A stretch of DNA of 64,000 nt from an uncultured Candidatus Saccharibacteria bacterium. GTDB lineage: Bacteria > Patescibacteriota > Minisyncoccia > UBA6257 > WO2-44-18. The DNA lies in the NCBI GenBank assembly GCA_964373675.1, contig CAYJVO010000002.1, positions 3,054 to 67,053 of the forward strand, in the 5' to 3' direction. Made by a program: the position numbers and the translations under genes. The notes beneath the pieces were generated by a model. It was not told the origin of the DNA. It ran no database searches and saw nothing but the letters and a program-made list of their open reading frames with translations. Positions 5,106-27,027 of this stretch are shown here, piece by piece (position 1 is the stretch's first letter; every line of letters starts with the position of its first letter).

Positions 5106-5215
5106 CTAAATTTTATTCTCCTTCGCCGAAAACCCCGGGCGGCCTACTCCGCCGAGTCTGACTCGGCTACGAAGGCTGGATAAGCCCGCGGGATGAAGGC
5201 GAGGAGCTTCATTTT
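5106..5215 (-). repeat. R1 structured repeat copy (supplies SD for the TagF-like gene and extends the dehydrogenase ORF)
   Basis: Reverse complement equals GAAGCTCCTCGCCTTCATCCCGCGGGCTTATCCAGCCTTCGTAGCCGAGTCAGACTCGGCGGAGTAGGCCGCCCGGGGTTTTCGGCGAAGGAGAATAAA, and ends 7 nt before the ATG at 5104. Confidence 0.7.
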
Positions 5216-6179
5216 CTAAATTCTTAATTGCCTTAACCACTAACTCGCTAATATAAACTTGAGTGCGTTCAGTGGCTTCCTCGGTAGAGCCGCCCAAATG
5301 CGGCAAAATGATCAAATTCTGATTTTTCCTGGCGTATTCCACCAACGGATTATTAATCAAATGGGCGCCGTCCGGGGATTCATCTGCCAACGTATCAATT
5401 CCCGCTCCGGCAATCCATCCTTTTTTTAAAGCCTCCAGCAATGCGACCTCATCAGTAATTTCCCCGCGGGCGGTGTTGATAAAAACGGCGGTTGGCTTCA
5501 TGAGTTTAAAATGTTCCTGTTTAAGCATTTTATAAGTAGAATCATTGTAAACAGCGTGAAGAGAAACAACATCGGATAATTTTAAAAGATTAGGCAGATC
5601 CGCCTTAACAGCTCCGTATTTTTTCATCTCGGCGGCGCCGACAAAAGGATCATAAGCCAACGCCCTCATTCCAAAGGCCGCGCTGTAGCCAGCCACCAGC
5701 CGTCCCAGCCGGCCAAAACCAATCAAACCGATAGTTTTTCCAGAAAGTTCCCGGCCGCTGTATTTAGCCCGATCCCATTCGCCTTTCTTAATCGCTTCAA
5801 ACCCCCAAGGAATTTTTCGCAACAGCGCCAAAATTAAAGCCATTGTTTCCTCAGCGGTAGAAGGAGTTTTGTGAAGAGCGGGAGCATCAGCTTTTATATT
5901 AACTATCTTAATGCCGCGCCGCCTGCACTCATCCAAATCCAAATACCTCAACTGGGTGGTGCGGGAACCGATCAGCTTTAATCTGCGCGCCCGATCCAAA
6001 ATAGGCTTATCAAACTTAACCTCCAAACCGGTCACTACCACATCGGCTTTTGACAAATTTCTAAAAAACTCCGCCCGCGATCCAAAATTAATCACCCGGC
6101 CGGATCGAGCAAGAATTTTTTTAGCTTTTGCGCTGAATTCTTTTTCCGCAATTAAAATATTAATTGATTTTTGAGCCAT
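5106..6179 (-). CDS. D-isomer-specific 2-hydroxyacid dehydrogenase (NAD-binding)
   Basis: GLIGFGRLGRLVAGY Rossmann motif and the typical family length. The last ~35 codons (RLHPAGLSSLRSRVRLGGVGRPGFSAKENKI) are read through the R1 repeat at 5106-5215, so the native C-terminus is probably earlier. Confidence 0.75.
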   Translation of the reverse strand: MAQKSINILIAEKEFSAKAKKILARSGRVINFGSRAEFFRNLSKADVVVTGLEVKFDKPILDRARRLKLIGSRTTQLRYLDLDECRRRGIKIVNIKADAPALHKTPSTAEETMALILALLRKIPWGFEAIKKGEWDRAKYSGRELSGKTIGLIGFGRLGRLVAGYSAAFGMRALAYDPFVGAAEMKKYGAVKADLPNLLKLSDVVSLHAVYNDSTYKMLKQEHFKLMKPTAVFINTARGEITDEVALLEALKKGWIAGAGIDTLADESPDGAHLINNPLVEYARKNQNLIILPHLGGSTEEATERTQVYISELVVKAIKNLENEAPRLHPAGLSSLRSRVRLGGVGRPGFSAKENKI

Positions 6180-6885
6180 ATTTTTTTATCAGCACCTCTG
6201 CCACCTCCCAATCAAAAGCGTCATTAATATCGTGAGCGGTCCAAGATTCAATGGGTAAACCAACTCGCTTTCCCACCTCAATCTTTTTTTCTTTTAAAAA
6301 AAGGTCTCTTCTAAAACAATAAACGCTGGCGAAAGCATATCGCTTGGGATCTGACTGTCTGGTTGGATGTTTATAATGAAGCTCCGGATTATCAAATTCC
6401 AAAAACCCATCGGCTGTTAAATGCCGCACGTGGTAGGGGTGAAAAGGTCTCGGCGCTTCAATGATGGTAATGCCCGAATCGGCTTTTTTATCACGGATAA
6501 GTTTAAATAATGCATCAATCTGTTCAGTAAGCACAAACGGCGAAGTAGGCTGGACCATAAAAACATATTCCGGACAATAATTTTCATTTTTTTCCAGCCA
6601 CTCAAGGGCGTGAAAAATAACCGGCGGCATCGGCGTGCCGTCTTCAGCTAATTCCGCCGGCCGCAAAAAAGGCGCTTCAGCGCCGTATCTTTTAGCGATC
6701 TCGGCGATTTTCTGATCGTCAGTGGTAATCACTACTCGGTCTACGAACCGGCTTTTTTTCAATGCTTTAATTGAATAAGCAATCAGCGGCTGGCCATTCA
6801 ATAATCTAATGTTCTTCCCCGGCAGTCCCTTAGAACCTCCTCTGGCAGGGACCAAACCCAAAAAACCAAATTTTTCCGATTGCAT
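6160..6885 (-). CDS. acylneuraminate (CMP-nonulosonic acid/CMP-Kdo) cytidylyltransferase family
   Basis: GLVPARGGSKGLPGKNIRLLNGQPLIAYSI is the N-terminal motif of CMP-NeuAc/Kdo synthetases. The longest ORF extends to 6930 as MCGFTW..., reading through an inverted-repeat cassette arm. Start at the Met at 6885 (MQSEKFG) is preferred. Confidence 0.7.
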   Translation of the reverse strand: MQSEKFGFLGLVPARGGSKGLPGKNIRLLNGQPLIAYSIKALKKSRFVDRVVITTDDQKIAEIAKRYGAEAPFLRPAELAEDGTPMPPVIFHALEWLEKNENYCPEYVFMVQPTSPFVLTEQIDALFKLIRDKKADSGITIIEAPRPFHPYHVRHLTADGFLEFDNPELHYKHPTRQSDPKRYAFASVYCFRRDLFLKEKKIEVGKRVGLPIESWTAHDINDAFDWEVAEVLIKKYGSKIN

Positions 6886-6921
6886 GGTAAAATTAATAAC
6901 ATAAAATAACAGCCAAGTAAA

Positions 6922-7134
6922 CCCGCACATAACTAGGACTGCAACAGCCTCGCTTCTCTGAAAAAAACGCCATCATTCACAATTTTTTATCAGCAAATCT
7001 TCGTAGCAATAGCAGTTTAACGCGTTAAACGCTTTGACGCGTCAAAGCACTATCCCATGGGATAGTGCTAGGAAATAACCCCACACAGCTTTGTCTCAGG
7101 CATTGAAGAAAGCGGAGTCCTAGTTATGTGCGGG
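6922..7134. mobile_element. inverted-repeat cassette, family A copy 1 (TIR CCCGCACATAACTAGGACT / AGTCCTAGTTATGTGCGGG)
   Basis: 19-bp perfect terminal inverted repeats at 6922-6940 and 7116-7134. The interior contains the perfect palindromes GCTTTGACGCGTCAAAGC and AGCACTATCCCATGGGATAGTGCT. The interior plus right arm is repeated at 45014-45174. Confidence 0.6.
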
Positions 7135-7206
7135 GCAAGCCCCGAGAAAATTAATAACTATATTAATAATTCCTAAATTAACTTAATAACCACTCAATAA
7201 CTACCA

Positions 7207-7297
7207 AACTATAACCTGTGCTATAACCTGTGCTATAAACTACATTATAAACTGTGCTATAAACTATACTATGCTATAAACTATACTATAAACTATT
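7207..7297. repeat. iteron-like tandem repeats (CTATAAAC/CTATAACCTGTG units, about 7 copies)
   Basis: Direct reading of 7207-7297 shows the tandem units. The block lies in a 710-bp non-coding region. Confidence 0.7.
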
Positions 7298-7303
7298 AAT
7301 AAA

Positions 7304-7343
7304 TCTTTCCGTTATAACCGCCATGGCGGTTATAACGGAAAGA
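7304..7343. repeat. 40-bp perfect palindrome TCTTTCCGTTATAACCGCC-ATGG-CGGTTATAACGGAAAGA
   Basis: Exact reverse-complement symmetry centred on CCATGG. Confidence 0.85.
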
Positions 7344-7346
7344 TTT

Positions 7347-7404
7347 CCGAAAATCCGAAAAAAATGAATCTCCAAAAAAATGAACCTCCGAAAATGAAAC
7401 TCCC
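7347..7404. repeat. tandem repeats of about 15 nt (AAAAATGAAYCTCC), 3-4 copies
   Basis: Direct reading of 7347-7404 shows the repeated unit. Confidence 0.6.
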
Positions 7405-7424
7405 CGGGCTTACCCTCGGCCTCG

Positions 7425-7608
7425 CTGTAAGCGGAGCCGAGTCTGACTCGGCGGAGCCCCACGCCTTTGGCAGGGCAATGCTCGCCCGTGGCAGGGCGTG
7501 ACGCCCGGGATATTCTTTGAATGAAGCTCCACGGCCTTATCTAGCCTTCGTAGCCGAGTCAGACTCGGCGGAGTAGGCCGCCCGGGGTTTTCGGCGAAGG
7601 AGAATAAA
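7425..7608 (+). repeat. R1 structured repeat family (one partial and one full copy) with GCCGAGTCWGACTCGGC hairpin
   Basis: CTTCGTAGCCGAGTCAGACTCGGCGGAGTAGGCCGCCCGGGGTTTTCGGCGAAGGAGAATAAA at 7546-7608 also occurs at 5106-5170 (reverse complement) and 56953-57024. A partial copy lies at 7425-7460. The local context is GC-rich. Confidence 0.7.
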
Positions 7609-7611
7609 CAA

Positions 7612-7640
7612 TAAAAAAAGCCGCGGTTTGATCGCGGCTG
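7612..7640 (-). terminator. rho-independent terminator of the sqd1-like gene
   Basis: On the minus strand, CAGCCGCG-ATCAAAC-CGCGGCTG is followed by TTTTTTT directly after the TAA stop. Confidence 0.7.
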
Positions 7641-8813
7641 TTATTTTTTCCTGTCCCAAGTAACTCTCGGCTGGATAATAGATATATCAATAAGGTGTTT
7701 GGCCTCCTTAATTTTCAAAAGCATGGAATTCACCAATTCCTCGGACAGCAATATCGGTTTTAACCCCAGTTTCAGCAAACTTTCGTTGGAAGGATTATAA
7801 TAGTGGTTCTCTTTTTCTACTCGGGGATTCTCTAATTTCTTAACAGCCACTGTCACTCCCAATTTGGCAGCTGAAGATTTTACTGTTTCTGCCAGCTGAC
7901 TGACGGAAAAAACTTCCGTAAATTGATTAAACACCCGAAACTCGCCTCTTTTAGCCGGATTTTCCACCGCTAACTGAACGCATTTTAAGGTATCACGAAT
8001 ATTCAGAAAACCCCGCTTCTGGCCGCCTAGACCGTAAACGGTCAGCGGTGTACCGACGACTGCTTGAACGCAAAATCTGTTTAATACTGTTCCAAAAACA
8101 TCGTCGTAATGAAAACTCGTCAAAAGATCGGGGTGAAGTTTGGTGCAATCGGTTTCAATTCCATAAACCACACCCTGATTAAGATCGGTAGCTCTCAACT
8201 TCCAAATACGGCAGGTAAATTCAATGTTGTGGCTGTCGTGAACCTTACTTAAATGATAAAACGAACCAGCACTTTTAGGATAAAGCATGCGGTCGTTACG
8301 TCCTTTATGATTAACATCTAACCAACCTTCTTCAATGTCTATATTGGGAGTGCCGTATTCGCCCATCGTCCCCAACTTCACTAAATGTGCGTCCGGAACA
8401 AATTTTTTCATCGCAAAAAGAACATTCAGGGTGCCGCTTATATTGTTTTCCTGCGTCAAAACGGCATTGCGTCGGCTGAACATTGAATAAGGCGCGGATG
8501 GCTGCTCGGCATAATGCACGATTGTCTGAGGACGAACTTCATCCATTATTTCAAAAAAGCGTCTTTCATTTTTCGCGATATCGGCAATAAAATATGAAAT
8601 TTTACGGCCGGCAACCTGCTCCCAAACATTTATCCGTTTCTGCAATGGAAGTGTAGACCAAAGAGGCATAGAACCAAACTCCGCTTCCCAAACTCTTTTT
8701 GCCATGCTATCAATGATTGCTACTTCGTAGCCAAGCGCGGAAAAATGCATTGCCGTCGGCCAGCCCAAATAGCCATCGCCGCCGAGAACGAGAATTTTAT
8801 GCGCTTCCATCAA
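7641..8813 (-). CDS. sqdB: UDP-sulfoquinovose synthase (SQD1/SqdB/Agl3 family)
   Basis: Near-collinear identity to SQD1 motifs: LGGDGYLGW, HYAEQPSAPYSM, VKLGTMGEYGTPNIDIEEGW, YPKSAGSFYHLSKVHDSHNI, ATDLNQGVVYG, LNRFCVQA and GEFRVFNQFTE. The protein is 390 aa. Confidence 0.85.
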   Translation of the reverse strand: MMEAHKILVLGGDGYLGWPTAMHFSALGYEVAIIDSMAKRVWEAEFGSMPLWSTLPLQKRINVWEQVAGRKISYFIADIAKNERRFFEIMDEVRPQTIVHYAEQPSAPYSMFSRRNAVLTQENNISGTLNVLFAMKKFVPDAHLVKLGTMGEYGTPNIDIEEGWLDVNHKGRNDRMLYPKSAGSFYHLSKVHDSHNIEFTCRIWKLRATDLNQGVVYGIETDCTKLHPDLLTSFHYDDVFGTVLNRFCVQAVVGTPLTVYGLGGQKRGFLNIRDTLKCVQLAVENPAKRGEFRVFNQFTEVFSVSQLAETVKSSAAKLGVTVAVKKLENPRVEKENHYYNPSNESLLKLGLKPILLSEELVNSMLLKIKEAKHLIDISIIQPRVTWDRKK

Positions 8814-8865
8814 CTCTCCTTGTAAGTTTGTTAAAGGACTAAAACCTATTCGTAAAGTTAATTTA

Positions 8866-8894
8866 AAAACAAAGGAGCGTCAATATTGACGCTC
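8866..8894 (-). terminator. rho-independent terminator downstream of the neuC-like gene
   Basis: On the minus strand, GAGCGTCAA-TAT-TGACGCTC is followed by CTTTGTTTTT. Confidence 0.6.
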
Positions 8895-8921
8895 TTTACA
8901 TAATTCATGCCCAGCAAGGGC

Positions 8922-10112
8922 TTAAATTCTAACATCGTTTTGAGAAATCAATTTCTTCCTAAAAAACCTGTCCTTATCTATTATAAAATTCTTCAAGACT
9001 TTAATTATTTTTTCTGATGCGCTTCCATCGCCAAACCCGTAACCGCAGCACGAGAGTTTCTTTTTAAACTGCGGATTTTGTAAAGCGTACTCCAACGCTC
9101 CCTTGATTGATTCAGGGGAAAGATCGGCATCAACAACATTTTCTTCCCGATCGCGTCCCATTTCTCTTTGGCCAATATTAATAGCTGGCAAATGGAAATA
9201 AGGCGCTTCCACAAAGGCACAAGAGGAATTGCCGATAATGGCTTTAGCATCCGCCATTAATCCAAGAAAATCCAAATTTTCAATATTTTTATAGACTGAG
9301 AACTGTTTATCGTTTTGGATTTCCGCAATCGCCTGCCGAATGCCTTCATAACCGGGATCCGAACACGGATAAATCACAATTGATCTGACGTTAGAGGGCC
9401 GGACAACGCTAAAAATATTTTTTGCTGTTTTATAATTTTCTTCCGTAGAGAGGTAAGTATCGGGATGGAAAATAACAATGAAATAATCGCTTTCATTAAG
9501 ACCGTATTTTTCTCTTGCTAATTTCGGATTAGTATACATCTTCTTTACAATCCGGTCTATATAAAGGGAGCCAACCATATAAATTCTCCACTGTTCTTCT
9601 CCAAGACCTATGATTCTTTGGGCTGCTTTTTCCGTCTCCGGAAAATGTATGTGGGCCAACTTTGTTATTGCGTGCCGCTGGATATCATCAATATTGCCGG
9701 AGGTCTCACCACCCTGCGTATGCGCAACAGCGATATTAAAATGAACCGCCGCCAATGCCATAACCAAATGCTCTCCCCTATCGCCGTGCACCATCAAAAT
9801 ATCCGGACGGAGTTTTTCTAAAACGCCGCCAGCCTGCTTAAGACATTCGCCAATATTCTCAACTCGGATTCTAGATGAATCTCCCCGTCCAGCGCCCATA
9901 GAAATTACCTCAATCAAACTATTTGGAAAATAGCTTCGAACCTCTCCTTGAGTCGCTCCAAATTCTTCCGAAGCGTGCATATCGCCCAAGAGAATCTGCA
10001 GTTCTAAATCCGAATCGTCATCAATAAGCCGCATTAAGGGCAAATAAGCGCCGAAGCCCCCCCGCTTACCGGAAAACACGCAGATCTTTCTTTTCGCCAA
10101 TTTTAAATACAC
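8922..10112 (-). CDS. neuC: UDP-N-acetylglucosamine 2-epimerase (hydrolysing), NeuC family
   Basis: HGDRGEHLVMALAAVHFNIAVAHTQGGETSGNIDDIQRHAITKLAH closely matches the NeuC signature HGDRFD...[22 protein letters not shown]. Confidence 0.75.
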   Translation of the reverse strand: MYLKLAKRKICVFSGKRGGFGAYLPLMRLIDDDSDLELQILLGDMHASEEFGATQGEVRSYFPNSLIEVISMGAGRGDSSRIRVENIGECLKQAGGVLEKLRPDILMVHGDRGEHLVMALAAVHFNIAVAHTQGGETSGNIDDIQRHAITKLAHIHFPETEKAAQRIIGLGEEQWRIYMVGSLYIDRIVKKMYTNPKLAREKYGLNESDYFIVIFHPDTYLSTEENYKTAKNIFSVVRPSNVRSIVIYPCSDPGYEGIRQAIAEIQNDKQFSVYKNIENLDFLGLMADAKAIIGNSSCAFVEAPYFHLPAINIGQREMGRDREENVVDADLSPESIKGALEYALQNPQFKKKLSCCGYGFGDGSASEKIIKVLKNFIIDKDRFFRKKLISQNDVRI

Positions 10113-10145
10113 TCAAACTGCTAATCGCAGTTTAGGCAAAAAGGA

Positions 10146-10871
10146 TTATTTTTGCAACACAAAAAAATAGTGATACTTATTCAATACCGGTTTTATTTCG
10201 CGCAAAATACGAAAATGCGAACCTAAAATTCGCCTGACCTTACCTAATCGGTAGTTCCAATAATCAATCTCCCAATAATGCTGACCAGAAACCTTGATGC
10301 CGCCGAACTTCAACGGAATACGCAGGAAAAAATCCAGAAAGGATTTTCTAAAAATAGTGCGTACGCCTGGAAATTTGAAAACCCATTCCCAACCAGTGGA
10401 TTTATAAGGCAAAGAAATCAAGGCGTAGCGCTTAGTCACGCGCCGTAATTCCGCCAGCGCCTTAGAAACCTCTTCAAACGGAATATGCTCTAAAACTTCA
10501 AAAGCCGTAACCACGTCAAATCCGCTTTCTTTAAATGGCAATGAGCGTATGTCTGCCACCACATCCGGATTTAAATTCTTATCAAAATCGCAGGTCGTCA
10601 AATTATAGCCCAGCTTTTTCATATAGTCCGAGAAAAACCCGCTGCCCTTCCCAATCTCCAAAATTTTAAATTTGCGATTCAAAACATCCGAATTCCATTC
10701 GAATGATTCTAAACCATCTTTGTTTTTGGATAATTCTAATGTATTCGAATTTTTTGAATCGCATTCCGCAATCTCTTGCACAAGACTAACTTGATAATAA
10801 TAAGAAATAAACCGCTCGAGGTCATCATACTTACGCCGAAAATAATGTTCTTTTTCAACTTGTGGGTTCAT
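10146..10871 (-). CDS. class I SAM-dependent methyltransferase carrying the in-frame 89-bp repeat
   Basis: ILEIGKGSGFFSDYMKKLGYNLTTCDFD is MTase motif I. Residues DSKNSNTLELSKNKDGLESFEWNSD are encoded by the repeat at 10674-10762. Confidence 0.6.
   Translation of the reverse strand: MNPQVEKEHYFRRKYDDLERFISYYYQVSLVQEIAECDSKNSNTLELSKNKDGLESFEWNSDVLNRKFKILEIGKGSGFFSDYMKKLGYNLTTCDFDKNLNPDVVADIRSLPFKESGFDVVTAFEVLEHIPFEEVSKALAELRRVTKRYALISLPYKSTGWEWVFKFPGVRTIFRKSFLDFFLRIPLKFGGIKVSGQHYWEIDYWNYRLGKVRRILGSHFRILREIKPVLNKYHYFFVLQK
10674..10762. mobile_element. 89-bp MITE-like repeat, copy 2, in-frame inside the methyltransferase CDS
   Basis: 11-bp terminal inverted repeats GCGATTCAAAA / TTTTGAATCGC. 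The host proteins are unrelated, but the repeat translates to nearly the same peptide in both. Confidence 0.65.
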
Positions 10872-10890
10872 GAAACCTATTGGCTAAACC

Positions 10891-11595
10891 CTAGTGGCTA
10901 TTGGCTTTGTGGATTATAAATGAATTCCCATGCCAAGAATATTTGTGGAACTCGGTCGCGCTGAATTGCGGATATTTCTTCAACCACTCTCGAAATGCCA
11001 GCTGCTCGCCGGCATTCGGGTTGCCCCGGAAAAGAAACCAATCATCAAAAACTATAACCGTCCCAGCAACTATATAATCCTTAACAAATTCCAGCACCGG
11101 CACCGTTGACTCATATAAATCGCAATCTACCCAAATCACGGCCGCAGATTTCATCGGCAGCTTTTTCCTGGTGTCCGCGGTTAGCGTTTCGTTAAACCAG
11201 CCGGGAATAATTTCCACTTTGCTAAAATCAACTCCTGCCGCTTTAAGGTTATTCTTGAAAAGACCCAGCGAGGCAGAATATTCGCCTTTAGAAAACTGAG
11301 TAAATTCCGCATCCTTTCCCCGTATATCCGGCAGCCCCTCAAAAGAATCGAAGGCGTAAAACCGCATTTCTTGAAGATGCTTATTTTTCTGCGCCCACCG
11401 GCAAGCCGCGGCAAAAGTCCCGCCTCGGAAAACCCCGAACTCCAAATAATCTCCGGGTAGGCGAGCTTCCGCGACATAGTTCATAATTTTACGCAAAATT
11501 TCCTGCTTATCCCGCTCTTTTGGAGATAAACGTAAAAATTCCAGCCCCGGAAATCGCCTTTCTAACCAATGAAAAATTGCTTTAAAGACGGCCAT
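10891..11595 (-). CDS. TylF/MycF-family (macrocin O-methyltransferase-like) SAM methyltransferase
   Basis: LPGDYLEFGVFRGGTFAAACRW and VIWVDCDLYESTVPVLEFV match the TylF family. Confidence 0.7.
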   Translation of the reverse strand: MAVFKAIFHWLERRFPGLEFLRLSPKERDKQEILRKIMNYVAEARLPGDYLEFGVFRGGTFAAACRWAQKNKHLQEMRFYAFDSFEGLPDIRGKDAEFTQFSKGEYSASLGLFKNNLKAAGVDFSKVEIIPGWFNETLTADTRKKLPMKSAAVIWVDCDLYESTVPVLEFVKDYIVAGTVIVFDDWFLFRGNPNAGEQLAFREWLKKYPQFSATEFHKYSWHGNSFIIHKANSH

Positions 11596-11812
11596 GCTTT
11601 TTTAATAAATTTTTAATGTCGCCGACATTTTTCACCTTCGCCATTTCCTCAATAACAATCTTCAATCCGTATTCCCTTTCCAGCGTCTCCCAAAGCTTTA
11701 ATCCGTTAAACGAATCCCAGCTTGATAAATTATCCGGACTGGTTTGATCCGTAATTTTTTCCGGCTTAACTCCAAAAACTCCCGCTAAAATTTCTTCTAA
11801 AGATTTATGCAT
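11582..11812 (-). CDS. acyl carrier protein
   Basis: 76 aa with LSSWDSFNGLKLWETLEREYGL, a DS phosphopantetheine-attachment motif in a helix II-like context. Confidence 0.65.
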   Translation of the reverse strand: MHKSLEEILAGVFGVKPEKITDQTSPDNLSSWDSFNGLKLWETLEREYGLKIVIEEMAKVKNVGDIKNLLKKHGRL

Positions 11813-11927
11813 CCCGTTAGAAGCAGATCGCGATCTGCGATTGGCTGGATATTATTTTATATAAACAATTTTTCATTTTTATAAGATTTTGGCAGTCTAT
11901 AAAGCGATCGCGGCTTCTAACGGGATC
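11810..11927. mobile_element. inverted-repeat cassette, family B copy 1 (CATCCCGTTAGAAGC...GCTTCTAACGGGATC) with internal promoter facing the ACP gene
   Basis: Arms at 11810-11832 and 11905-11927 are inverted repeats. The terminal CAT of the left arm is the ACP start codon. On the minus strand the interior reads TTATAA-17 nt-TATAAA about 35 nt upstream of the ATG. Confidence 0.6.
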
Positions 11928-11939
11928 TTGTTTCAAGAT

Positions 11940-13613
11940 TTATGATTCGTAATCTGCTGTAGAAAGATCGCCCAGATCGGCGCCAGTCTCCTGGGCCCGA
12001 AGCACTCGGCGCATAATCTTTCCGCTGCGAGTCTTGGGTAATTTACTGACGAACTCAATCTCTCGCGGCACTTCGTGTACTGATAAATGTTTTTTCACAA
12101 ATTGCATCAGCTCACTCTTCAACGCCTCACCGGCTTCCGAACCAGACTTGAGCATCACGAACGCCTTAACGACATTGCCATATAATTCGTGGGGCTTTCC
12201 GATCACGCCGGCCTCCGCCACCGCCGGATGGGCCACCAACGTGCTTTCAATTTCAAAAGGACTAATCCGTTCAGCGGCACTCTTAATCATATCGTCTTCC
12301 CGACCCTGGAACCAAATATATCCCTCCCCATCCTTATAGGCCGTATCGCCAGAAATATACCACCCATCCTCAAAATAGGAATCAAACTTTTTTGGATTGT
12401 TCCAAATTGTTTTCATCAACCCTGGCCATGGAATTTTTACCGCTAAGCGACCAACCTCACCGGGCGGCAGCTCTTTGCCTTGATGATCAATAATCGCAGC
12501 CACGATACCCGGAATTGGTTTTCCCATTGATCCTTTCTTAATAGGCAAACAACGATAGTTATTAATAAGCTGGTGGCCATTCTCCGTCATATACCAAGAA
12601 TCATGTATTGATATTCCTAAACTATCCATCGTCCAGTCAATTAAGCTCGGGTTCAGTGGCTCGCCAGCGCTCACAATATGACGCAACGCCGGATGGTTTT
12701 CTTTATTTATCGGTGTGTTGTAGTAACGGAGCAGACGAAAGGCGGTCGGCGTGCTGTACCAAACGCTGATCCTCATTTTTTCCATGAACTCCGCCCAAGC
12801 CAACGACTGAAATTGGCCTTCATAAATATGCGCCGCCACCCCGCAAAGAAGCGGGGCAAAAAAATTGTAGACCATCCCCGTTACCCACCCAGGATCTCCG
12901 GTATTCCAATACCGATCTTCCGCATGAAGGTCCAATACATATTTAGCAGTGACCAGATGGCCAATCATGGCGCGATTAACCAGCAAGACACCCTTTGGCT
13001 TGGCCGTAGAGCCAGAAGTGTAATGAATAATAAACGGTGTTTCCAGATCGCCAAAGTACAATGCTCTTGGGTCGATTGACGTTTTTACGGCTTCCGAAAT
13101 TTTTTCTGGCGTTAAAATATTTTTCAATGCCGGCAGCTTATTCAAGGGAACATTAGGCCGAAGTTTTTCAGTAGTATAAATCCAAGTGGCTGAACAGTCT
13201 CCTAACCGATCCTCAATAGCGTCGGCGCCAAAAGCCTCAAAAAGCGGCACCGCGATCGCGCCGCACTTAATAGTGGCATGCAATACCGCCACGTATTCTA
13301 TGGAACGCGGCGCGTACAAAGCAAAACGATCACCGGGCCGCAAACCGTTTTGGTAAAAAAAGGACGCCAGCCGATCGGTTTTCTCTGCCAGTTCCTGAAA
13401 AGTAATCTGCTGGGCGACTCCATCAGCGCGCTGGGAAATAATCGCCGGCCGATCGCCGTTTCCTTTAACTGCCTGAACATTCGTAATTTCGTAAGCGTAA
13501 TTTACTTTGCCGTTGGCGTGCCAAGAAAATTCTTGGTGCCAATCCTGCCAAGAAAATCGTTTATATTCCGCTTCGTAATCCTTAAAATTAGGAGCTAGAT
13601 CCATCTTTTGCAT
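11940..13613 (-). CDS. AMP-dependent synthetase/ligase (acetyl/acetoacetyl-CoA synthetase-like)
   Basis: IIHYTSGSTAKPKGV is the AMP-binding motif, and the protein has an Acs-like N-terminus. The long ORF to 13700 overlaps the upstream gene, so start at the Met near 13613 (MQKMDLAPNF) is preferred. Confidence 0.7.
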   Translation of the reverse strand: MQKMDLAPNFKDYEAEYKRFSWQDWHQEFSWHANGKVNYAYEITNVQAVKGNGDRPAIISQRADGVAQQITFQELAEKTDRLASFFYQNGLRPGDRFALYAPRSIEYVAVLHATIKCGAIAVPLFEAFGADAIEDRLGDCSATWIYTTEKLRPNVPLNKLPALKNILTPEKISEAVKTSIDPRALYFGDLETPFIIHYTSGSTAKPKGVLLVNRAMIGHLVTAKYVLDLHAEDRYWNTGDPGWVTGMVYNFFAPLLCGVAAHIYEGQFQSLAWAEFMEKMRISVWYSTPTAFRLLRYYNTPINKENHPALRHIVSAGEPLNPSLIDWTMDSLGISIHDSWYMTENGHQLINNYRCLPIKKGSMGKPIPGIVAAIIDHQGKELPPGEVGRLAVKIPWPGLMKTIWNNPKKFDSYFEDGWYISGDTAYKDGEGYIWFQGREDDMIKSAAERISPFEIESTLVAHPAVAEAGVIGKPHELYGNVVKAFVMLKSGSEAGEALKSELMQFVKKHLSVHEVPREIEFVSKLPKTRSGKIMRRVLRAQETGADLGDLSTADYES

Positions 13614-13659
13614 ATGTGCATATTGTAACGATTTTTTTGTATTTACGCAACAAAAAAGC

Positions 13660-14616
13660 CTACTCTTGAGTAGGCTCATACGAATACTTAATGATGTCAT
13701 AGTGAAGCGCCTTCATTAAGGAATAGAGGGTTTCGTTCACGGGCACACTAAGGCCATGCTTTCTTGCCAATTGGACGACTTTTCCCACAAAGCTTTCGTA
13801 CTCTAATTTTCGTTTCCGCAATCGTACATCTCTTTGGGTAGAGCTGACATATTCATTAAACGACTTCCCTGAATCTAAAACATAATTTACGTCATCCGGT
13901 GTTAAAACCACTCCTTCGGCTCGGCCAACCGCCACTACCTCCGCCATCAGCTTATCCAGCATTACCGCTGACTCGGAACATTCATGAAAACGATTAAAGG
14001 GAAGGTTGCAAACTGCCGTTGGAATATTGATGGTACAATTCCATAAAAATTTTCTCCACATCGCTCTTCGGATATCCGGCGGATTAAATACTGGTATATT
14101 GGCTTTTCTAAATGTGTCATTAATGGCTGAGACGCGTCTTGAAACTTCGCCATTCCATTCGCTAAAATAAATTTCCCCTTTACTGCCATGGTCAACTGTT
14201 CCTTCAGGATGGTTAACGGAAACGCCTACTAAAGTAAAGCCGGGCAAAACCTTTTCCTGGCCAATCACTGCTCCAATTCTCTCTGGATTGTCAATGCCAT
14301 TTTGAATCGTCAGAACCAATGTATCCTTCCCAACCACTGACTTAATCGCCTGCGCGGCTTCATCGGTGTCATGGGACTTAACTGTAAATAAAATAAGGTC
14401 GGCTTCTGGCAATCCATCAAGGGTGTCTCGGAAATTTGCCGGACTAATGTCAAAATTGCCAGTACGGCTGCGTACCCGAATCCCATGCCTGCGGAAATGA
14501 ACCAAATTCTGTCCGCGGGTAATAAAAGTTACATCGTATCCTGCCCGAACTAATAAGGCACCGAAATAAGCTCCGACTGCTCCGGCGCCCATTATATAAA
14601 TCCTGTTCATCAACAC
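13660..14616 (-). CDS. 2-dehydropantoate 2-reductase (PanE/ApbA)-family NAD(P) oxidoreductase
   Basis: MNRIYIMGAGAVGAYFGALLVRAGYDV is an N-terminal Rossmann motif. The 318-aa length matches the ApbA N- plus C-domain. Confidence 0.65.
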   Translation of the reverse strand: MLMNRIYIMGAGAVGAYFGALLVRAGYDVTFITRGQNLVHFRRHGIRVRSRTGNFDISPANFRDTLDGLPEADLILFTVKSHDTDEAAQAIKSVVGKDTLVLTIQNGIDNPERIGAVIGQEKVLPGFTLVGVSVNHPEGTVDHGSKGEIYFSEWNGEVSRRVSAINDTFRKANIPVFNPPDIRRAMWRKFLWNCTINIPTAVCNLPFNRFHECSESAVMLDKLMAEVVAVGRAEGVVLTPDDVNYVLDSGKSFNEYVSSTQRDVRLRKRKLEYESFVGKVVQLARKHGLSVPVNETLYSLMKALHYDIIKYSYEPTQE

Positions 14617-14655: not shown

Positions 14656-15114
14656 CTATTTCCTTGGCAAATTGATCCTATAAAAATTCGTCTCCGCTCT
14701 GGAAAACCCCATTGCTTGATACATCTTATTCGCCTCAACCCGCTTCGGATTGGTCCGCAAACTGATATGCTTAGCCCCGAATTTTTCCGCCGTTTCAATA
14801 GCGGTTTTCAAAATAGCCGGCCCGATACCAGTCAAACGATAATCGCGATCCGCTACTAAATCCTCCAGCTCGGCGATTAAACCAGTCGGCAATTGTGTAA
14901 AATAAAGAAATCCCATACCAACAATTTGGGGCCCATTTTTAACAACTAGAAGGCGGCCGCTGTCTTGATTCAACAACTTTATAAAATCGGTTTCACTAAG
15001 CGGCTTAGGAGGCACAGCGGTCAACCCTAGCTGACCTATTAAAATGTTTACATCGCGAAGCGCCTCGGCGCTATATTCTTTTAATTGTTCCACTTGCATA
15101 AAGGTTACCTTCAT
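14656..15114 (-). CDS. GNAT-family N-acetyltransferase
   Basis: 152 aa with a GNAT-like acetyl-CoA-binding region (QIVGMGFLY...RLTGIGPAILKTAIE). Confidence 0.6.
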   Translation of the reverse strand: MKVTFMQVEQLKEYSAEALRDVNILIGQLGLTAVPPKPLSETDFIKLLNQDSGRLLVVKNGPQIVGMGFLYFTQLPTGLIAELEDLVADRDYRLTGIGPAILKTAIETAEKFGAKHISLRTNPKRVEANKMYQAMGFSRAETNFYRINLPRK

Positions 15115-15177: not shown

Positions 15178-15630
15178 ATGAAACTAAAGTTGTTTTTGGC
15201 ATTCTCCGCTCTTTTAGTCGGCTTTCTTTATATCCTGCCCCCGCTTTTTGTTAAAGCTCATCTGGAAAAATCCGGCCAGGTTTTCGCTCTGAATTTTGAT
15301 GTCTATCGCGATGAGCTCTTCTATTTATCCCGCGCTCGGGAAATCTATGACGGCCACTTCCCGCCCAGTGACCTCTACTACAATGGGAAAAAACCAACTG
15401 TTCAGAATCCGCTTCCCTCTTTAATTTTGGCCGGGCTCATCTATCTTTGGAAAGGCAATATAGTCATCGCCTACCTTACCGCTCAGTTCATCTTCACGCC
15501 AATCATCTTCCTGCTTCTGTATATTCTCGGCAAACAACTGTTTCAATCTCCGCTCTGGGCAATCGCTTTTGCCTACATTACAGTACTTACGCCAATGGCG
15601 TTGCGTGTTTTAAATTTCCATGGAGCTTAG
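15178..15630 (+). CDS. polytopic membrane protein, N-terminal segment (possible frameshift with following ORF)
   Basis: Hydrophobic 150-aa ORF that overlaps the next ORF by 11 nt in the +1 frame. Confidence 0.4.
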   Translation: MKLKLFLAFSALLVGFLYILPPLFVKAHLEKSGQVFALNFDVYRDELFYLSRAREIYDGHFPPSDLYYNGKKPTVQNPLPSLILAGLIYLWKGNIVIAYLTAQFIFTPIIFLLLYILGKQLFQSPLWAIAFAYITVLTPMALRVLNFHGA

Positions 15631-20239: not shown

Positions 20240-20518
20240 CCCGTTAGAGACAGGGAGCGTTTTAATCGATTTTTGATATATCGCTTTCCCATGCCTGATT
20301 TTAAATATAGTTCCCTCGACTTTGCGTCTTGTTCATTTTCGCATGCTTCAAAATATATTAATTCCCAAGGTCCACGATTTTTAGTGAAGCCATGTAAATC
20401 ACTGTTGCGTTATTTAAAACGCTTCCGTAAATCTGCCGTATATCCTGTATACCATTGTCTATTCTTTTTGCTTTGTAAAACATAAACATAATAAAACATT
20501 ATTGTCTCTAACGGGATC
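20237..20518. mobile_element. inverted-repeat cassette, family B copy 2 (CATCCCGTTAGAGACAG ... TTGTCTCTAACGGGATC)
   Basis: Arms at 20237-20253 and 20502-20518. The left-arm CAT is the start codon of the GT4 gene. The right arm abuts the stop codon of the next methyltransferase gene. The interior is 248 bp and AT-rich. Confidence 0.6.
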
Positions 20519-21242: not shown

Positions 21243-21252
21243 AGATTCTAAA

Positions 21253-26975: not shown

Positions 26976-26981
26976 ATTTAA

Positions 26982-27003: not shown

Positions 27004-27027
27004 AATTGATTCTAGCCTATTTTAAGA

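What the first reader, a model, noticed from the sequence alone, without database searches (positions are those of the whole stretch)
5106..14616. Glycan island combines sulfoquinovose synthesis, a nonulosonic-acid module and an ACP-dependent acylation module
SQD1/SqdB (7641-8813) is a strong match, which points to a sulfosugar in a cell-surface glycan, as in Sulfolobus S-layer N-glycans. It sits next to a NeuC-type hydrolysing 2-epimerase and a CMP-nonulosonate cytidylyltransferase. No NeuB-type synthase is in the window. It is followed by ACP, an AMP-ligase, a PanE-like ketoreductase and a GNAT. That set would fit activation, reduction and N-transfer of a short acyl group such as 3-hydroxybutyryl onto an amino or nonulosonic sugar. 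A B12 radical SAM enzyme and about seven methyltransferases add further predicted tailoring. Six GT4s, a flippase and a 1260-aa wall-anchored protein complete what looks like a protein or S-layer glycosylation system with an unusually decorated glycan.
Basis: inference. Interest (0 to 1): 0.55.

Follow-up and report, generated by a model that had tools for sequence, protein, structure and literature searches.

The report
Sulfo-sugar enzyme inside sialic-acid-like pathway
This surface-sugar gene island from an uncultured ultra-small bacterium places a sulfoquinovose-synthase-like enzyme inside a sialic-acid-type pathway, an arrangement conserved in at least five phyla that may produce a sulfonated nine-carbon sugar I could not find described.

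Summary
The window is a Patescibacteria (CPR)-type contig. On the minus strand it carries GNAT, PanE-like reductase, an AcsA-derived ligase, ACP, two methyltransferases, NeuC and SQD1, then a terminator. After that come a CMP-nonulosonate-synthetase-like gene, a PGDH-like dehydrogenase, a TagF/BFO_1060-like transferase and a deacetylase.

The SQD1 homolog is not a stray sulfoquinovose gene. It belongs to a distinct SQD1 subfamily, which I call "type B". In 35 of 46 species-level type B loci, NeuC, NeuB or CMP-transferase genes lie within 6 kb of it. None of 38 canonical SQD1 loci shows this. The usual operon is NeuC–CMP-transferase–(CysH)–SQD1–NeuB.

The most economical reading is a pathway to a CMP-activated, C-sulfonated nonulosonic acid. 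This is inferred from gene context, not shown.

The window and its closest relatives lack NeuB locally, and the window also lacks any sulfite-supply gene. In one relative, NeuB sits in a second nonulosonate cluster that appears to be on the same contig.

The ACP module recurs in CPR glycan clusters, sometimes with a phosphopantetheinyl transferase. Its ligase has an altered acetate pocket.

I found no description of the SQD1–nonulosonate link in the searchable literature.

The parts
691..2769 (+). B12-binding radical SAM enzyme, nearest to KedN5-type C-methyltransferases. It recurs as an accessory gene of the cassette.
   Evidence: Pfam Radical_SAM and B12-binding. NCBIfam NF033712 scores 186 bits, below cut-off. 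Orthologs lie next to type B SQD1 in 10 of 46 loci.
2764..3768 (-). NodB-type polysaccharide deacetylase. It is a candidate for removing an N-acetyl group before re-acylation.
   Evidence: PF01522, E = 1.3e-23. It holds the same position in L002 and L004.
3689..5104 (-). TagF-like / BFO_1060-like GT-B protein, a candidate transferase for the CMP-activated sugar. It carries an in-frame 90-nt repeat insertion at 4318-4407.
   Evidence: NF046086 BFO_1060 scores 63 bits, TIGR04396 35 bits, Glyphos_transf 21 bits, all below cut-off. It is 67-75% identical to the L002 and L004 orthologs. This family occurs in 16 of 33 cassette loci. There is no PDB relative by sequence.
5106..6179 (-). D-2-hydroxyacid dehydrogenase, PGDH-like. 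Its start overlaps the end of the cytidylyltransferase gene by 20 nt. Its last ~35 residues are encoded by a dispersed repeat.
   Evidence: PF02826, E = 1e-51. Best PDB match is 1wwk, a PGDH, at 185 bits. It sits next to the CMP-transferase in 13 of 46 type B loci. The repeat arm is at 5111-5197.
6160..6930 (-). CMP-nonulosonate synthetase-like cytidylyltransferase. The real start is probably Met16, near position 6885.
   Evidence: PF02348 scores 83 bits; TIGR03584 PseF scores 143 bits against a cut-off of 206. Best PDB hits are NeuA 9ftb (106 bits), 6ifd and 1eyr. KdsB enzymes score far lower.
6931..7640 (.). A 710-nt non-coding spacer between the two transcription units. It holds a bidirectional terminator hairpin at 7619-7639, copies of dispersed repeats (6978-7143, 7529-7608) and short tandem 'TATAGTTTATAGCA'-type repeats.
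   Evidence: Sequence, repeats, terminator scan, no Rfam family.
7641..8813 (-). Type B SQD1 (UDP-sulfoquinovose-synthase family). The ATG start at 8810 gives the 389-aa database protein P0001.
   Evidence: 475 bits to 1QRR/1I24. TMGEY and YHLSK are conserved. It carries the type B signature K36 E40 P47 S229 H231. Type B forms one NJ clade with 65/100 bootstrap support.
8922..10112 (-). NeuC-type hydrolysing UDP-HexNAc 2-epimerase.
   Evidence: TIGR03568 scores 327, above the cut-off of 236; PF02350, E = 6.5e-65. SQD1-linked NeuC genes from other phyla score 285-550 bits against it, whereas second NeuC copies in the same loci score 109-186.
10146..10871 (-). Class I SAM methyltransferase with an in-frame 90-nt repeat insertion at 10673-10762. 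In L002 the slot between the TylF and NeuC genes holds CysH instead.
   Evidence: Methyltransf_11. Alignment with the L004 ortholog. L002 gene order.
10891..11595 (-). TylF/MycF-type sugar O-methyltransferase.
   Evidence: PF05711, E = 1.3e-22.
11582..11812 (-). Small acyl carrier protein of 76 aa, with a serine in a WDSF motif.
   Evidence: PP-binding scores 21 bits, just above cut-off. NCBIfam ACP models score below cut-off. Sequence. Orthologs follow the ligase in L002, L092 and L093.
11940..13700 (-). AcsA-derived adenylate-forming ligase from a CPR-specific clade with a changed acyl pocket. It is the presumed loader of the ACP.
   Evidence: 560 bits to PDB 9g79 acetyl-CoA synthetase. It belongs to a clade of 38 proteins at 62-71% identity, after which identity drops to 51%. 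The motif is DSWYMTENG in 34/38 clade members (DSWYMTE[NQ]G in 38/38), against D[TN]WWMTETG in 81/82 AcsA proteins.
13660..14616 (-). PanE/ApbA-family ketoacid reductase. It overlaps the ligase gene by 41 nt.
   Evidence: TIGR00745 scores 250, above the cut-off of 141. PDB 3hwr scores 148 bits. The PanE-ligase-ACP order is conserved in L002 and L092.
14656..15114 (-). Small GNAT acyltransferase, the first gene of the minus-strand operon.
   Evidence: PF00583, E = 4e-13. GNAT and a TagF-like gene are paired in L002, L004, L005 and L092.
15178..31537 (.). Assembly and tailoring part of the island.
- A polytopic membrane protein in two ORFs (15178-17083).
- Methyltransferases at 17080-17931, 20517-21242, 21253-21942 and 27028-28128.
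- GT4s at 19136-20239, 24766-25836, 25803-26975, 28180-30477 (a double GT4) and 30446-31537.
- A second TagF/BFO_1060-like protein at 22025-23383.
- A membrane protein of roughly 10-12 predicted TM segments at 23380-24765.
   Evidence: Pfam and NCBIfam searches. Hydropathy analysis.
31530..36083 (-). A TPR protein (31530-32219) and a 1260-aa secreted surface protein rich in Thr, Ala, Gly and Ser. The large protein has a hydrophobic signal-peptide-like N-terminus, a PG_binding_1 domain and an (AP)n linker. It is a possible carrier of the glycan.
   Evidence: Pfam and sequence. Proteins of 1268 and 1253 aa with PG_binding_1 occupy the same position in L005 and L094.

Best explanation
The region is the sugar-precursor part of a ~35-kb cell-surface glycan island in a Patescibacteria-type bacterium.

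The SQD1, NeuC and cytidylyltransferase genes are three of the four genes of a cassette that is conserved across phyla (NeuC, CMP-transferase, type B SQD1, NeuB). I propose that this cassette makes a CMP-activated, C-sulfonated nonulosonic acid. All of the following steps are inferred:
1. The SQD1-type enzyme oxidises C4 of a UDP-hexose, most simply UDP-GlcNAc, dehydrates across C5-C6 and adds sulfite to C6.
2. The NeuC-type enzyme removes UDP with inversion at C2, giving a free 6-sulfo-ManNAc-type sugar.
3. A NeuB-type synthase condenses this sugar with PEP. The simplest product is 9-deoxy-9-sulfo-Neu5Ac.
4. The NeuA-like enzyme makes the CMP donor.
5. A TagF/BFO_1060-like GT-B protein transfers it to a wall polymer or to the adjacent 1260-aa surface protein.

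In this window NeuB and any sulfite source (CysH, TauE) must be supplied from elsewhere in the genome.

The deacetylase, the AcsA-derived ligase, ACP, the PanE-like reductase and GNAT would exchange the N-acetyl group for a short, possibly hydroxylated, acyl group carried on ACP. The methyltransferases and the B12 radical SAM enzyme add methyl groups.

Shown: the gene identities, the conserved cassette, the distinct SQD1 subfamily and the recurrence of the ACP module. Inferred: the substrate of SQD1, the order of steps, the product and the acceptor.
For: (1) Family assignments come.

(2) Association: 35 of 46 type B SQD1 loci have NeuC, NeuB or CMP-transferase genes within 6 kb, against 0 of 38 other SQD1 loci (Fisher p = 2.6e-14). 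All three partner genes lie within 8 kb in 22 loci.

(3) Co-directional operons of the form NeuC>(MT)>CTP3>(CysH)>SQD1>NeuB occur in CPR, Actinomycetota, Alpha- and Betaproteobacteria, Desulfobacterota and Nitrospirota MAGs.

(4) CysH sits beside type B SQD1 in 7 CPR loci. The two copies tested (L007 and L002) pass the NCBIfam phosphoadenylyl-sulfate reductase cut-off (184/186 > 154). A TauE-family gene is also present in L007. This argues that sulfite is used.

(5) The cassette travels as a unit. Where a locus has two or more NeuB copies, the copy nearest SQD1 is the best match to the L007 SQD1-linked NeuB in 11 of 12 loci (median 273 vs 97 bits). The same holds for NeuC in 4 of 5 loci.

(6) Type B SQD1 keeps TMGEY and YHLSK. 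It replaces R36, D40, S47, R229 and D231, which are conserved in plant SQD1, actinomycete SqdB and the distant sulfolipid SqdB of S. meliloti and Marinovum. This happens although type B is closer to plant SQD1 than those proteobacterial enzymes are.

(7) The compact cassettes contain no aminotransferase or extra dehydratase. SQD1 therefore holds the place that LegB/PseB hold in the 9-deoxy nonulosonate pathways.

(8) A NeuC-type enzyme needs a 2-acetamido sugar (established mechanism, recalled from my own knowledge).

(9) In a relative with the same NeuC-SQD1-CTP3-TagF architecture and no local NeuB (L094), a NeuB lies in a second nonulosonate cluster.

(10) ACP module: the order PanE-ligase-ACP(-TagF)-GNAT is conserved in L002 and L092. 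A PPTase (ACPS) lies beside the module in L092 and L093. The ligase clade has the acetate-pocket Trp replaced by Tyr in 38 of 38 members.
Against: - No NeuB, CysH or TauE is present in the 64-kb window or in the 3 kb to its left. The pathway is therefore incomplete as seen.
- The SQD1 homolog is 54% identical to the UDP-glucose enzyme of Arabidopsis. Nothing in the sequence shows that it takes UDP-GlcNAc.
- The R101-to-Pro change that I first took as a specificity marker also occurs in six non-nonulosonate loci and in a haloarchaeal homolog, so it is not diagnostic.
- Three complete alphaproteobacterial type B loci (L021, L023, L026) have no nonulosonate genes within 6 kb. They sit in O-antigen-like contexts, so a type B product can evidently be used without NeuC or NeuB.
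- The window has a GalU/RmlA-type nucleotidyltransferase and a phosphoglucomutase nearby, so UDP-glucose may be available.
- The role of the recurrent PGDH-like dehydrogenase is unexplained.
- The type B clade has only moderate support (65/100).
- Organism labels of some MAG records are unreliable.
Confidence: 0.45

Rival explanations
1. Two independent donors serve one glycan. SQD1 makes ordinary UDP-sulfoquinovose from UDP-glucose, and a GT4 transfers it, as in SQDG synthesis or the Sulfolobus N-glycan. NeuC, NeuB and NeuA make an ordinary Neu5Ac-type CMP-sugar. The genes are linked only because both sugars belong to the same conserved epitope.
For: - 54% identity to the UDP-glucose-specific plant SQD1, with all catalytic residues kept.
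- Six GT4 modules lie in the window, and many GT4s lie next to NeuC-SQD1-CTP3 in L005 and L094.
- A GalU-like gene and a PGM gene are in the window.
- Type B SQD1 occurs without nonulosonate genes in L021, L023 and L026.
Against: - No glycosyltransferase family co-occurs with SQD1 as regularly as NeuC, NeuB and CTP3 do.
- SQD1, and often CysH, sits inside the nonulosonate operon, between CTP3 and NeuB, in distant phyla.
- The linked NeuB and NeuC form their own orthologous groups, distinct from second copies in the same loci.
- The SQD1 subfamily has lost five residues that are conserved in all tested sulfolipid-type enzymes.
Confidence: 0.3
2. Type B 'SQD1' works without sulfite as a UDP-HexNAc 5,6-dehydratase, like TunA or Pen. 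It would supply an exo-glycal or 6-deoxy precursor for a 9-deoxy nonulosonate, or, with the B12 radical SAM enzyme, a C-methylated, chain-extended one.
For: - Agl3/SQD1 forms UDP-glucose-5,6-ene when sulfite is absent, and Pen/Pal feed pseudaminic acid synthesis this way (PMC8987622).
- The window has no sulfite-supply gene.
- A B12 radical SAM enzyme recurs in 10 of 46 type B loci.
- CMP-activated ulosonic acids with an extended carbon chain have been reported in Magnetospirillum (bioRxiv 10.64898/2026.04.20.719630).
Against: - CysH is inserted next to type B SQD1 in seven CPR loci, and the two copies tested pass the curated CysH cut-off. TauE is present in one.
- The SQD1-specific TMG and His183 motifs are kept, rather than the TCE or DK acid/base pairs of known 5,6-dehydratases.
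Confidence: 0.08
3. The window copy is a decaying or incomplete cassette. With NeuB and the sulfite genes lost, the remaining genes would be inactive or used for something else. In this reading the ligase, PanE and ACP are housekeeping genes (acetyl-CoA synthetase, pantoate synthesis, fatty-acid ACP) that merely lie nearby.
For: - No NeuB, CysH or TauE in 64 kb.
- Dispersed repeats have inserted into three of the genes.
- The ligase scores 560 bits to a solved acetyl-CoA synthetase, and PanE passes the TIGR00745 cut-off.
Against: - All ORFs are intact.
- The same NeuB-less arrangement is kept at 65-75% protein identity in L002, L004, L005 and L094.
- The repeat insertions are in frame and lie in variable loops.
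- The ligase belongs to a CPR-specific clade with a changed acyl pocket. It is followed by an ACP, and in relatives a PPTase lies beside it within glycan clusters.
Confidence: 0.1
4. The SQD1 homolog serves sulfolipid (SQDG) synthesis in the membrane.
For: This is the commonest known role of the family. GT4 enzymes of the SqdX/SQD2 type are present in the window.
Against: - Genuine sulfolipid operons (sqdB-sqdD-sqdC in S. meliloti and Marinovum) look different, and their SqdB is only ~41% identical to the window protein.
- Every conserved neighbour of the window gene is a glycan or nonulosonate gene.
Confidence: 0.02

Closest known systems
UDP-sulfoquinovose synthase (plant SQD1, bacterial SqdB, Sulfolobus Agl3)
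   Same: Full-length homology (475 bits to 1QRR). GxxGxxG is present, as are the TMG...YHxxK catalytic motif and the His next to the Tyr. A sulfite-producing CysH lies beside the gene in relatives.
   Different: - It belongs to a separate subfamily with K36, E40, P47, S229 and H231 in place of the conserved R, D, S, R and D.
- Its neighbours are NeuC, NeuB and NeuA rather than sqdD, sqdC or sqdX.
- It scores below the NCBIfam equivalog cut-off.
- The substrate is unknown and could be UDP-GlcNAc.
Bacterial sialic acid pathway NeuC-NeuB-NeuA
   Same: A hydrolysing 2-epimerase that passes the curated cut-off. A NeuA-like cytidylyltransferase. In relatives, a NeuB-family synthase in the same operon.
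   Different: - An SQD1-type enzyme, and often CysH, is part of the operon.
- The linked NeuB is divergent: TIGR03569 scores 266 against a cut-off of 400.
- NeuB is absent from this window.
Legionaminic and pseudaminic acid pathways (LegB/PseB SDR first step, then LegG, LegI, LegF)
   Same: The logic is the same. An SDR enzyme first alters C6 of a nucleotide-HexNAc, the nucleotide is then removed, the sugar is condensed with PEP, and the product is activated with CMP. SQD1 belongs to the same SDR superfamily as LegB and PseB.
   Different: No aminotransferase or N-acetyltransferase step is present in the compact cassettes. C6 would receive a sulfonate instead of being reduced to a methyl group.
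Tannerella forsythia O-glycan nonulosonate locus (Pse5Am7Gra / Leg derivative) with BFO_1060/Tanf_01245
   Same: A surface-protein glycan ends in a heavily N-acylated nonulosonate. A BFO_1060-family protein lies at the end of the locus (PMC5378307). An N-glyceroyl group shows that hydroxy-acid acylation of such sugars exists.
   Different: The match to the BFO_1060 model is weak (63 bits against a cut-off of 200). The Tannerella locus has no SQD1 or ACP module. My recollection that Tanf_01245 is the transferase was not checked with the tools.
Kuenenia stuttgartiensis legionaminic-acid cluster with deacetylase and formyltransferase
   Same: A deacetylase sits inside a nonulosonate cluster, and N-acyl exchange takes place at the level of the CMP-sugar (bioRxiv 10.64898/2026.04.20.719630).
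   Different: In the window the new acyl group would come from an ACP loaded by an AcsA-derived ligase, not from a formyl donor.
Carrier-protein loading by adenylate-forming enzymes (AasS acyl-ACP synthetase, DltA/DltC)
   Same: An ANL-family ligase is followed by a small carrier protein, with a PPTase nearby in relatives. The product is destined for a cell-envelope polymer.
   Different: The ligase descends from AcsA-type acetyl-CoA synthetase. No DltB- or DltD-like proteins are present. The acyl group and the acceptor are unknown. This comparison comes from my own knowledge and was not tested.

Membership tests
UDP-sulfoquinovose synthase (SQD1/SqdB/Agl3) | Full-length similarity to a solved SQD1 | tested here: met
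   475 bits, residues 5-387 aligned to 1I24/1QRR. 54% identity.
UDP-sulfoquinovose synthase (SQD1/SqdB/Agl3) | SDR catalytic fingerprint [ST]MG...Yx3K, with His after the Tyr | tested here: met
   TMGEY and YHLSK are present. The fingerprint is as given in PMC8987622.
UDP-sulfoquinovose synthase (SQD1/SqdB/Agl3) | Score above the curated equivalog cut-off (NF041015) | tested here: not met
   446 bits against a cut-off of 575.
UDP-sulfoquinovose synthase (SQD1/SqdB/Agl3) | Residues R36, D40, S47, R229 and D231, shared by plant, actinomycete and Rhizobium/Roseobacter sulfolipid enzymes | tested here: not met
   The window has K, E, P, S and H at these positions, as do all 46 type B proteins at 229 and 231. 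The role of these residues is unknown.
UDP-sulfoquinovose synthase (SQD1/SqdB/Agl3) | Sulfite-dependent conversion of UDP-glucose to UDP-sulfoquinovose | not testable with these tools
   The only evidence is indirect: CysH and TauE lie beside type B genes in relatives. Neither is in the window.
Sulfolipid (SQDG) operon | sqdB linked to sqdD/sqdC or sqdX | tested here: not met
   The window's neighbours are NeuC and a cytidylyltransferase. Genuine sqdB-sqdD(-sqdC) operons were seen in L089 and L090.
NeuC/LegG hydrolysing 2-epimerase | Score above the TIGR03568 cut-off over the full length | tested here: met
   327 bits against a cut-off of 236, model positions 1-365.
CMP-nonulosonate synthetase (NeuA/LegF/PseF) | CTP_transf_3 fold, closer to NeuA/PseF than to KdsB | tested here: met
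   PF02348 scores 83 bits. PDB NeuA enzymes score 63-106 bits and KdsB enzymes at most 40.
CMP-nonulosonate synthetase (NeuA/LegF/PseF) | Score above a curated equivalog cut-off | tested here: not met
   TIGR03584 PseF scores 143.5 against a cut-off of 205.7.
Complete nonulosonic acid biosynthesis cluster | A NeuB/LegI/PseI-type synthase | tested here: not met
   None in the 64-kb window, in six frames, with an unfiltered HMM. None in the 3 kb to the left. NeuB is present in 27 of 46 related type B loci and in a second cluster of relative GCA_964637575.1. The rest of the genome could not be searched.
Carrier-protein-dependent acylation module | ANL ligase, ACP with a serine attachment site, and a PPTase | tested here: inconclusive
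   The ligase and ACP are adjacent. A PPTase is not in the window, but one lies beside the orthologous ligase in L092 and L093. Loading of the ACP is not testable here.
Acetyl-CoA synthetase (AcsA type) | Acetate-pocket Trp in the D[TN]WWMTETG motif and a score above the equivalog cut-off | tested here: not met
   The window has DSWYMTENG, shared by 34 of 38 clade members (DSWYMTE[NQ]G in all 38), against WW in 81 of 82 AcsA proteins. NF003313 scores 664 against a cut-off of 729. That this Trp gates the acetate pocket is recalled from the literature, not checked.
Wzx flippase | Polysacc_synt / MOP family match | tested here: not met
   No family hit for any window ORF. The relatives L007 and L094 do encode Polysacc_synt proteins.

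The most novel reading that the evidence does not exclude
A widespread but undescribed pathway makes a C-sulfonated nonulosonic acid. The simplest product is CMP-9-deoxy-9-sulfo-N-acetylneuraminic acid. A dedicated SQD1 subfamily would sulfonate UDP-GlcNAc at C6 ahead of NeuC, NeuB and NeuA. In CPR bacteria this sugar would be further N-acylated through an ACP and methylated, then displayed on the cell surface.
Probability: 0.42. Interest if true: 0.85.

Novelty: new variant of a known kind. Interest (0 to 1): 0.7.

Why it matters
Sialic-acid-like sugars shape how microbial surfaces are recognised by hosts, phages and partner cells. Sulfoquinovose is one of the major organic sulfur compounds in nature.

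A pathway that joins the two would add a new class of strongly acidic surface sugar and a new sink for sulfite. It would also introduce a new organosulfur compound in groundwater, soil and marine bacteria; SAR116 and SAR11-type genomes are among the carriers.

The prediction is directly testable, because the cassette is only four or five genes long.

It also explains why such a sugar could have been missed. PGAP names the enzyme only "NAD-dependent epimerase/dehydratase", and a recent nucleotide-sugar discovery pipeline excludes compositions that contain both N and S.

For CPR bacteria, which live attached to hosts, the decorated glycan and the neighbouring 1260-aa wall-bound protein are candidates for the contact surface.

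Tried and rejected
1. R101-to-Pro as a marker of a switch to UDP-GlcNAc. The idea came from analogy with GalE K84 and WbpP G102, which I recalled from memory. I rejected it as diagnostic because Pro101 also occurs in six non-nonulosonate loci and in a Natrinema homolog. It is also unclear whether Agl3 'Arg101' is the same column.

2. Finding NeuB elsewhere in the same genome. The exact-protein look-ups returned only short Logan contigs from ERR3478686.

3. Finding a cultured carrier. The best 120 relatives of an alphaproteobacterial type B enzyme are all metagenomic or MAG proteins. The plasmid collection holds only sulfolipid-type or archaeal homologs.

4. A hidden NeuB remnant or known RNA in the 710-nt SQD1/CTP3 spacer. 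There is neither.

5. YfhO identity for the split membrane protein at 15178-17083. There is no Pfam hit and no tblastn match to the L002 YfhO.

6. Literature. Seven full-text searches combined sulfoquinovose, sqdB or sulfonate with nonulosonic, sialic, neuB, N-acetylneuraminate or CPR terms. None found a paper linking them. A search for the 'hexagonal box' papers found none held in the library.

7. A role for the PGDH-like dehydrogenase. I considered glycerate or lactate supply, sulfolactate/sulfopyruvate chemistry and reduction of the 2-keto group. No evidence bears on any of them.

Full report
**What is in the window**

The region 2.7-15.1 kb carries twelve intact, tightly packed genes on the minus strand.

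Transcription would run from GNAT (14656-15114) through these genes:
- PanE-like reductase (13660-14616)
- an adenylate-forming ligase (11940-13700)
- a 76-aa ACP (11582-11812)
- a TylF-type methyltransferase and a class-I methyltransferase
- NeuC (8922-10112)
- SQD1 (7641-8813)

A strong terminator hairpin lies directly after SQD1 (7619-7639). A 710-nt repeat-rich spacer follows.

A second unit then holds:
- a NeuA/PseF-like cytidylyltransferase (6160-6930)
- a PGDH-like D-2-hydroxyacid dehydrogenase (5106-6179)
- a TagF/BFO_1060-like GT-B protein (3689-5104)
- a NodB-type deacetylase (2764-3768)

A B12 radical SAM gene (691-2769) is transcribed in the opposite direction.

Downstream, up to 36 kb, lie five GT4 proteins with six GT4 modules, four more methyltransferases, a second TagF-like protein and unassigned polytopic membrane proteins. 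There is also a TPR protein and a 1260-aa Thr/Ala/Gly/Ser-rich protein with a hydrophobic signal-peptide-like N-terminus and a peptidoglycan-binding domain.

No ORF matches a Wzx flippase family. No NeuB is present. Pfam found none in any large ORF. An unfiltered NeuB HMM run against all six frames found nothing.

The rest of the window is housekeeping: ClpB, FtsK, RecA, Ddl, glycogen genes and two tRNAs.

**Origin**

The SQD1 and ligase proteins are on record from one 72,249-bp NCBI contig and from Logan run ERR3478686. Named close relatives are from Patescibacteria, Uhrbacteria and Paceibacterota MAGs, many of them from groundwater. The organism is therefore a CPR/Patescibacteria bacterium. 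This is an inference, since no marker-gene phylogeny was made.

**The SQD1 homolog**

- It aligns over its full length with Arabidopsis SQD1 (475 bits, 54% identity).
- It keeps the family fingerprint TMG...YHxxK.
- It scores below the NCBIfam equivalog cut-off (446 against 575).

**The main result: SQD1 is part of a conserved cassette**

Four close CPR relatives show the same NeuC-SQD1-cytidylyltransferase order (L002, L004, L005, L007).

I then scanned one genome per species with the SQD1 protein and kept the best 80 loci. I searched their ORFs with the window proteins plus NeuB, CysH and TauE taken from L007. SQD1 homologs fall into two kinds.

Canonical "type A" enzymes have R36, D40, S47, R229 and D231. 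This group includes plant SQD1 and the actinomycete loci. The distant, genuine sulfolipid SqdB proteins of Sinorhizobium and Marinovum carry the same residues. They lie in sqdB-sqdD(-sqdC) operons and are 41% identical to the window protein.

"Type B" enzymes, including the window protein, have K, E, P, S and H at these positions. This holds although they are closer overall to plant SQD1 than the proteobacterial enzymes are. Type B forms one neighbour-joining clade with 65/100 bootstrap support.

The association with nonulosonate genes is strong:
- 35 of 46 type B loci have NeuC, NeuB or a CTP_transf_3 gene within 6 kb. None of 38 other loci does (p = 2.6e-14).
- All three partner genes lie within 8 kb in 22 loci.
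- The usual arrangement is a co-directional operon, NeuC>(methyltransferase)>cytidylyltransferase>(CysH)>SQD1>NeuB.
- This operon is seen in CPR, Actinomycetota, Alpha- and Betaproteobacteria, Desulfobacterota and Nitrospirota MAGs. Some MAG labels are unreliable.
- Where a locus has several NeuB or NeuC copies, the copy next to SQD1 belongs to its own orthologous group (11 of 12 loci for NeuB, 4 of 5 for NeuC). The cassette is therefore inherited or transferred as a unit.
- In seven CPR loci a CysH gene is inserted beside SQD1. The two copies tested pass the curated phosphoadenylyl-sulfate reductase cut-off.
- L007 adds a TauE-family permease.
- All 240 best database relatives of two type B queries carry the type B pattern, so the subfamily is large.

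**Interpretation**

A NeuC-type enzyme needs a 2-acetamido sugar. The compact cassettes contain no aminotransferase or other dehydratase. SQD1 belongs to the same SDR superfamily as LegB and PseB, which start the 9-deoxy nonulosonate pathways by altering C6 of a nucleotide-HexNAc.

The most economical reading is therefore a single pathway:
1. Sulfite is added at C6 of UDP-GlcNAc.
2. UDP is removed with 2-epimerisation.
3. The sugar is condensed with PEP.
4. The product is activated with CMP, giving a 9-deoxy-9-sulfo nonulosonate.

This rests on gene context and known enzyme mechanisms. No step has been shown.

Three rivals remain:
- Two separate donors, UDP-sulfoquinovose and a Neu5Ac-type CMP-sugar, that belong to one epitope. 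In its favour are the high identity to the UDP-glucose enzyme, the many GT4s, and three complete alphaproteobacterial type B loci that lack nonulosonate genes within 6 kb and sit in O-antigen-like contexts.
- A sulfite-independent 5,6-dehydratase role, possibly coupled to the recurrent B12 radical SAM enzyme. The CysH linkage argues against this.
- A sulfolipid role. The gene context does not fit it.

I first took the R101-to-Pro change as a possible specificity marker. It also occurs outside the cassette, so I dropped it.

**What is special about the window**

The window and its nearest relatives (L002, L004, L005, L094) lack NeuB within 10 kb. The window also lacks CysH and TauE.

In the relative GCA_964637575.1, a NeuC-SQD1-cytidylyltransferase-TagF block without NeuB (L094) appears to share a 170,689-bp contig with a second cluster (L092). 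That cluster holds the PanE-ligase-ACP-TagF-GNAT module followed by NeuC, a cytidylyltransferase, a 2-hydroxyacid dehydrogenase, EamA and NeuB. The shared contig is inferred from matching longest-contig lengths; the two fetched loci do not overlap.

In the window these two clusters appear merged, and NeuB is not in the merged block. Supply of NeuB from elsewhere in the genome is thus plausible. I could not check it.

**The ACP module**

- The ligase scores 560 bits to a solved AcsA-type acetyl-CoA synthetase.
- It belongs to a tight clade of 38 metagenomic proteins at 62-71% identity. After that, identity drops to 51% with Bacillaceae AcsA.
- The whole clade replaces the second Trp of the D[TN]WWMTETG motif by Tyr and the following Thr by Asn or Gln (38 of 38, against 81 of 82 AcsA proteins). 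From memory, this Trp limits the pocket to acetate.
- Orthologs are followed by a small ACP. In L092 and L093 a phosphopantetheinyl transferase lies beside the ligase, inside glycan clusters.
- In L004 the ACP-GNAT pair is kept, but a MaoC hydratase and an SDR replace the ligase and PanE.
- Together with the deacetylase, this fits N-acyl exchange on the sugar. A deacetylase/formyltransferase pair in a Kuenenia legionaminic-acid cluster acts on the CMP-sugar in that way.
- The acyl group, the acceptor and the use of ACP by the GNAT are all inferred.

**Transferase and unexplained genes**

The TagF-like protein matches the BFO_1060 model only weakly. BFO_1060/Tanf_01245 is the hypothetical protein at the end of the Tannerella nonulosonate locus. 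The TagF-like family is the only transferase-like family that recurs in the cassette loci (16 of 33).

The PGDH-like dehydrogenase lies next to the cytidylyltransferase in 13 of 46 type B loci, but its role is unexplained.

**Novelty**

Full-text searches combining sulfoquinovose, sqdB or sulfonate with nonulosonic, sialic, neuB or CPR terms found no paper that links them. One recent nucleotide-sugar survey explicitly filters out compositions that contain both N and S. The library is incomplete, so prior description elsewhere cannot be excluded.

I rate the window as a new variant of a known kind of system. It is a nonulosonate pathway with a built-in sulfonation step, plus a carrier-protein acylation module.

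Noticed in passing
window 4318-4407 and 10673-10762: A 90-nt repeat (90% identical) is inserted in frame into two unrelated genes, the TagF-like transferase and a methyltransferase. Both proteins gain the peptide DSKNSNT.ELS.NKDGLE.FEWNSD. In each case the insertion lies in a loop that varies or is absent in the orthologs.
   Followed up: partly
window 5111-5197, 7529-7608, 56938-57024: An ~80-87-nt dispersed repeat (88-96% identical, in both orientations). One copy forms the 3' end of the 2-hydroxyacid dehydrogenase gene. It gives that protein a ~35-residue tail that the 319- and 323-aa orthologs in L002 and L004 lack.
   Followed up: partly
window 6978-7143 and 45018-45183: A 166-nt repeat, 95% identical, found in two intergenic regions. 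It has no Rfam match and is MITE-like.
   Followed up: no
window 6916-6960, 21928-21972, 62118-62162: A 45-nt element that contains a short hairpin overlaps the annotated 5' ends of three minus-strand genes. Two of the copies are 98% identical. It may be a shared leader or promoter element.
   Followed up: no
window 28548-28594, 29716-29762, 43759-43840, 45502-45548, 45991-46037, 46340-46386: Runs of a CCTGAYA heptamer occur at several places, some of them inside coding regions (the double GT4 gene and the phosphoglucomutase gene).
   Followed up: no
window 45227-46614 (minus strand): Phosphoglucomutase is split into two ORFs that overlap by 4 nt: domain I at 46159-46614 and domains II-IV at 45227-46162. 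This could be a frameshift, a pseudogene or a sequencing error.
   Followed up: no
window 15178-15630 and 15620-17083 (plus strand): Two overlapping ORFs together encode a ~637-aa protein with about 10 predicted TM segments and no family match. This may be one gene broken by a frameshift. In L002 a 637-aa YfhO-family protein occupies the corresponding place, but I found no sequence similarity to it.
   Followed up: partly
window 7150-7330 (spacer between SQD1 and the cytidylyltransferase): Short tandem AT-rich repeats of the type TATAGTTTATAGCA / GGTTATAGCACA lie in the 710-nt non-coding spacer.
   Followed up: no
L092 7879-8883: In a relative, a PEP-mutase/isocitrate-lyase-family gene sits directly before the PanE-ligase-ACP module, and a second ligase, a small ACP-like ORF and a PPTase lie upstream. 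This hints that the 2-keto acid reduced by PanE may be made by that enzyme, for example a phosphonopyruvate-type compound.
   Followed up: no
L021, L023, L026 (about 8.8-12.5 kb in L023): Alphaproteobacterial type B SQD1 genes without nonulosonate neighbours are followed by a UDP-sugar dehydrogenase. They are transcribed away from a WecA-type HexNAc-1-P transferase and a PglF-like dehydratase. This suggests a second use of the type B product in O-antigen-like glycans.
   Followed up: partly
L057, L062, L040: Single-cell genomes labelled Pelagibacteraceae (SAR11) and SAR116 carry type B SQD1 with NeuB-family genes nearby. The predicted sugar could therefore occur in abundant marine bacteria.
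   Followed up: no
L009 compared with L007/L008: The record titled 'uncultured Gammaproteobacteria bacterium' (CAZSQN010000002.1) is the same contig as L008. It carries the same gene content and scores as the Uhrbacteria locus L007, so some MAG taxonomic labels in the collection are unreliable.
   Followed up: partly
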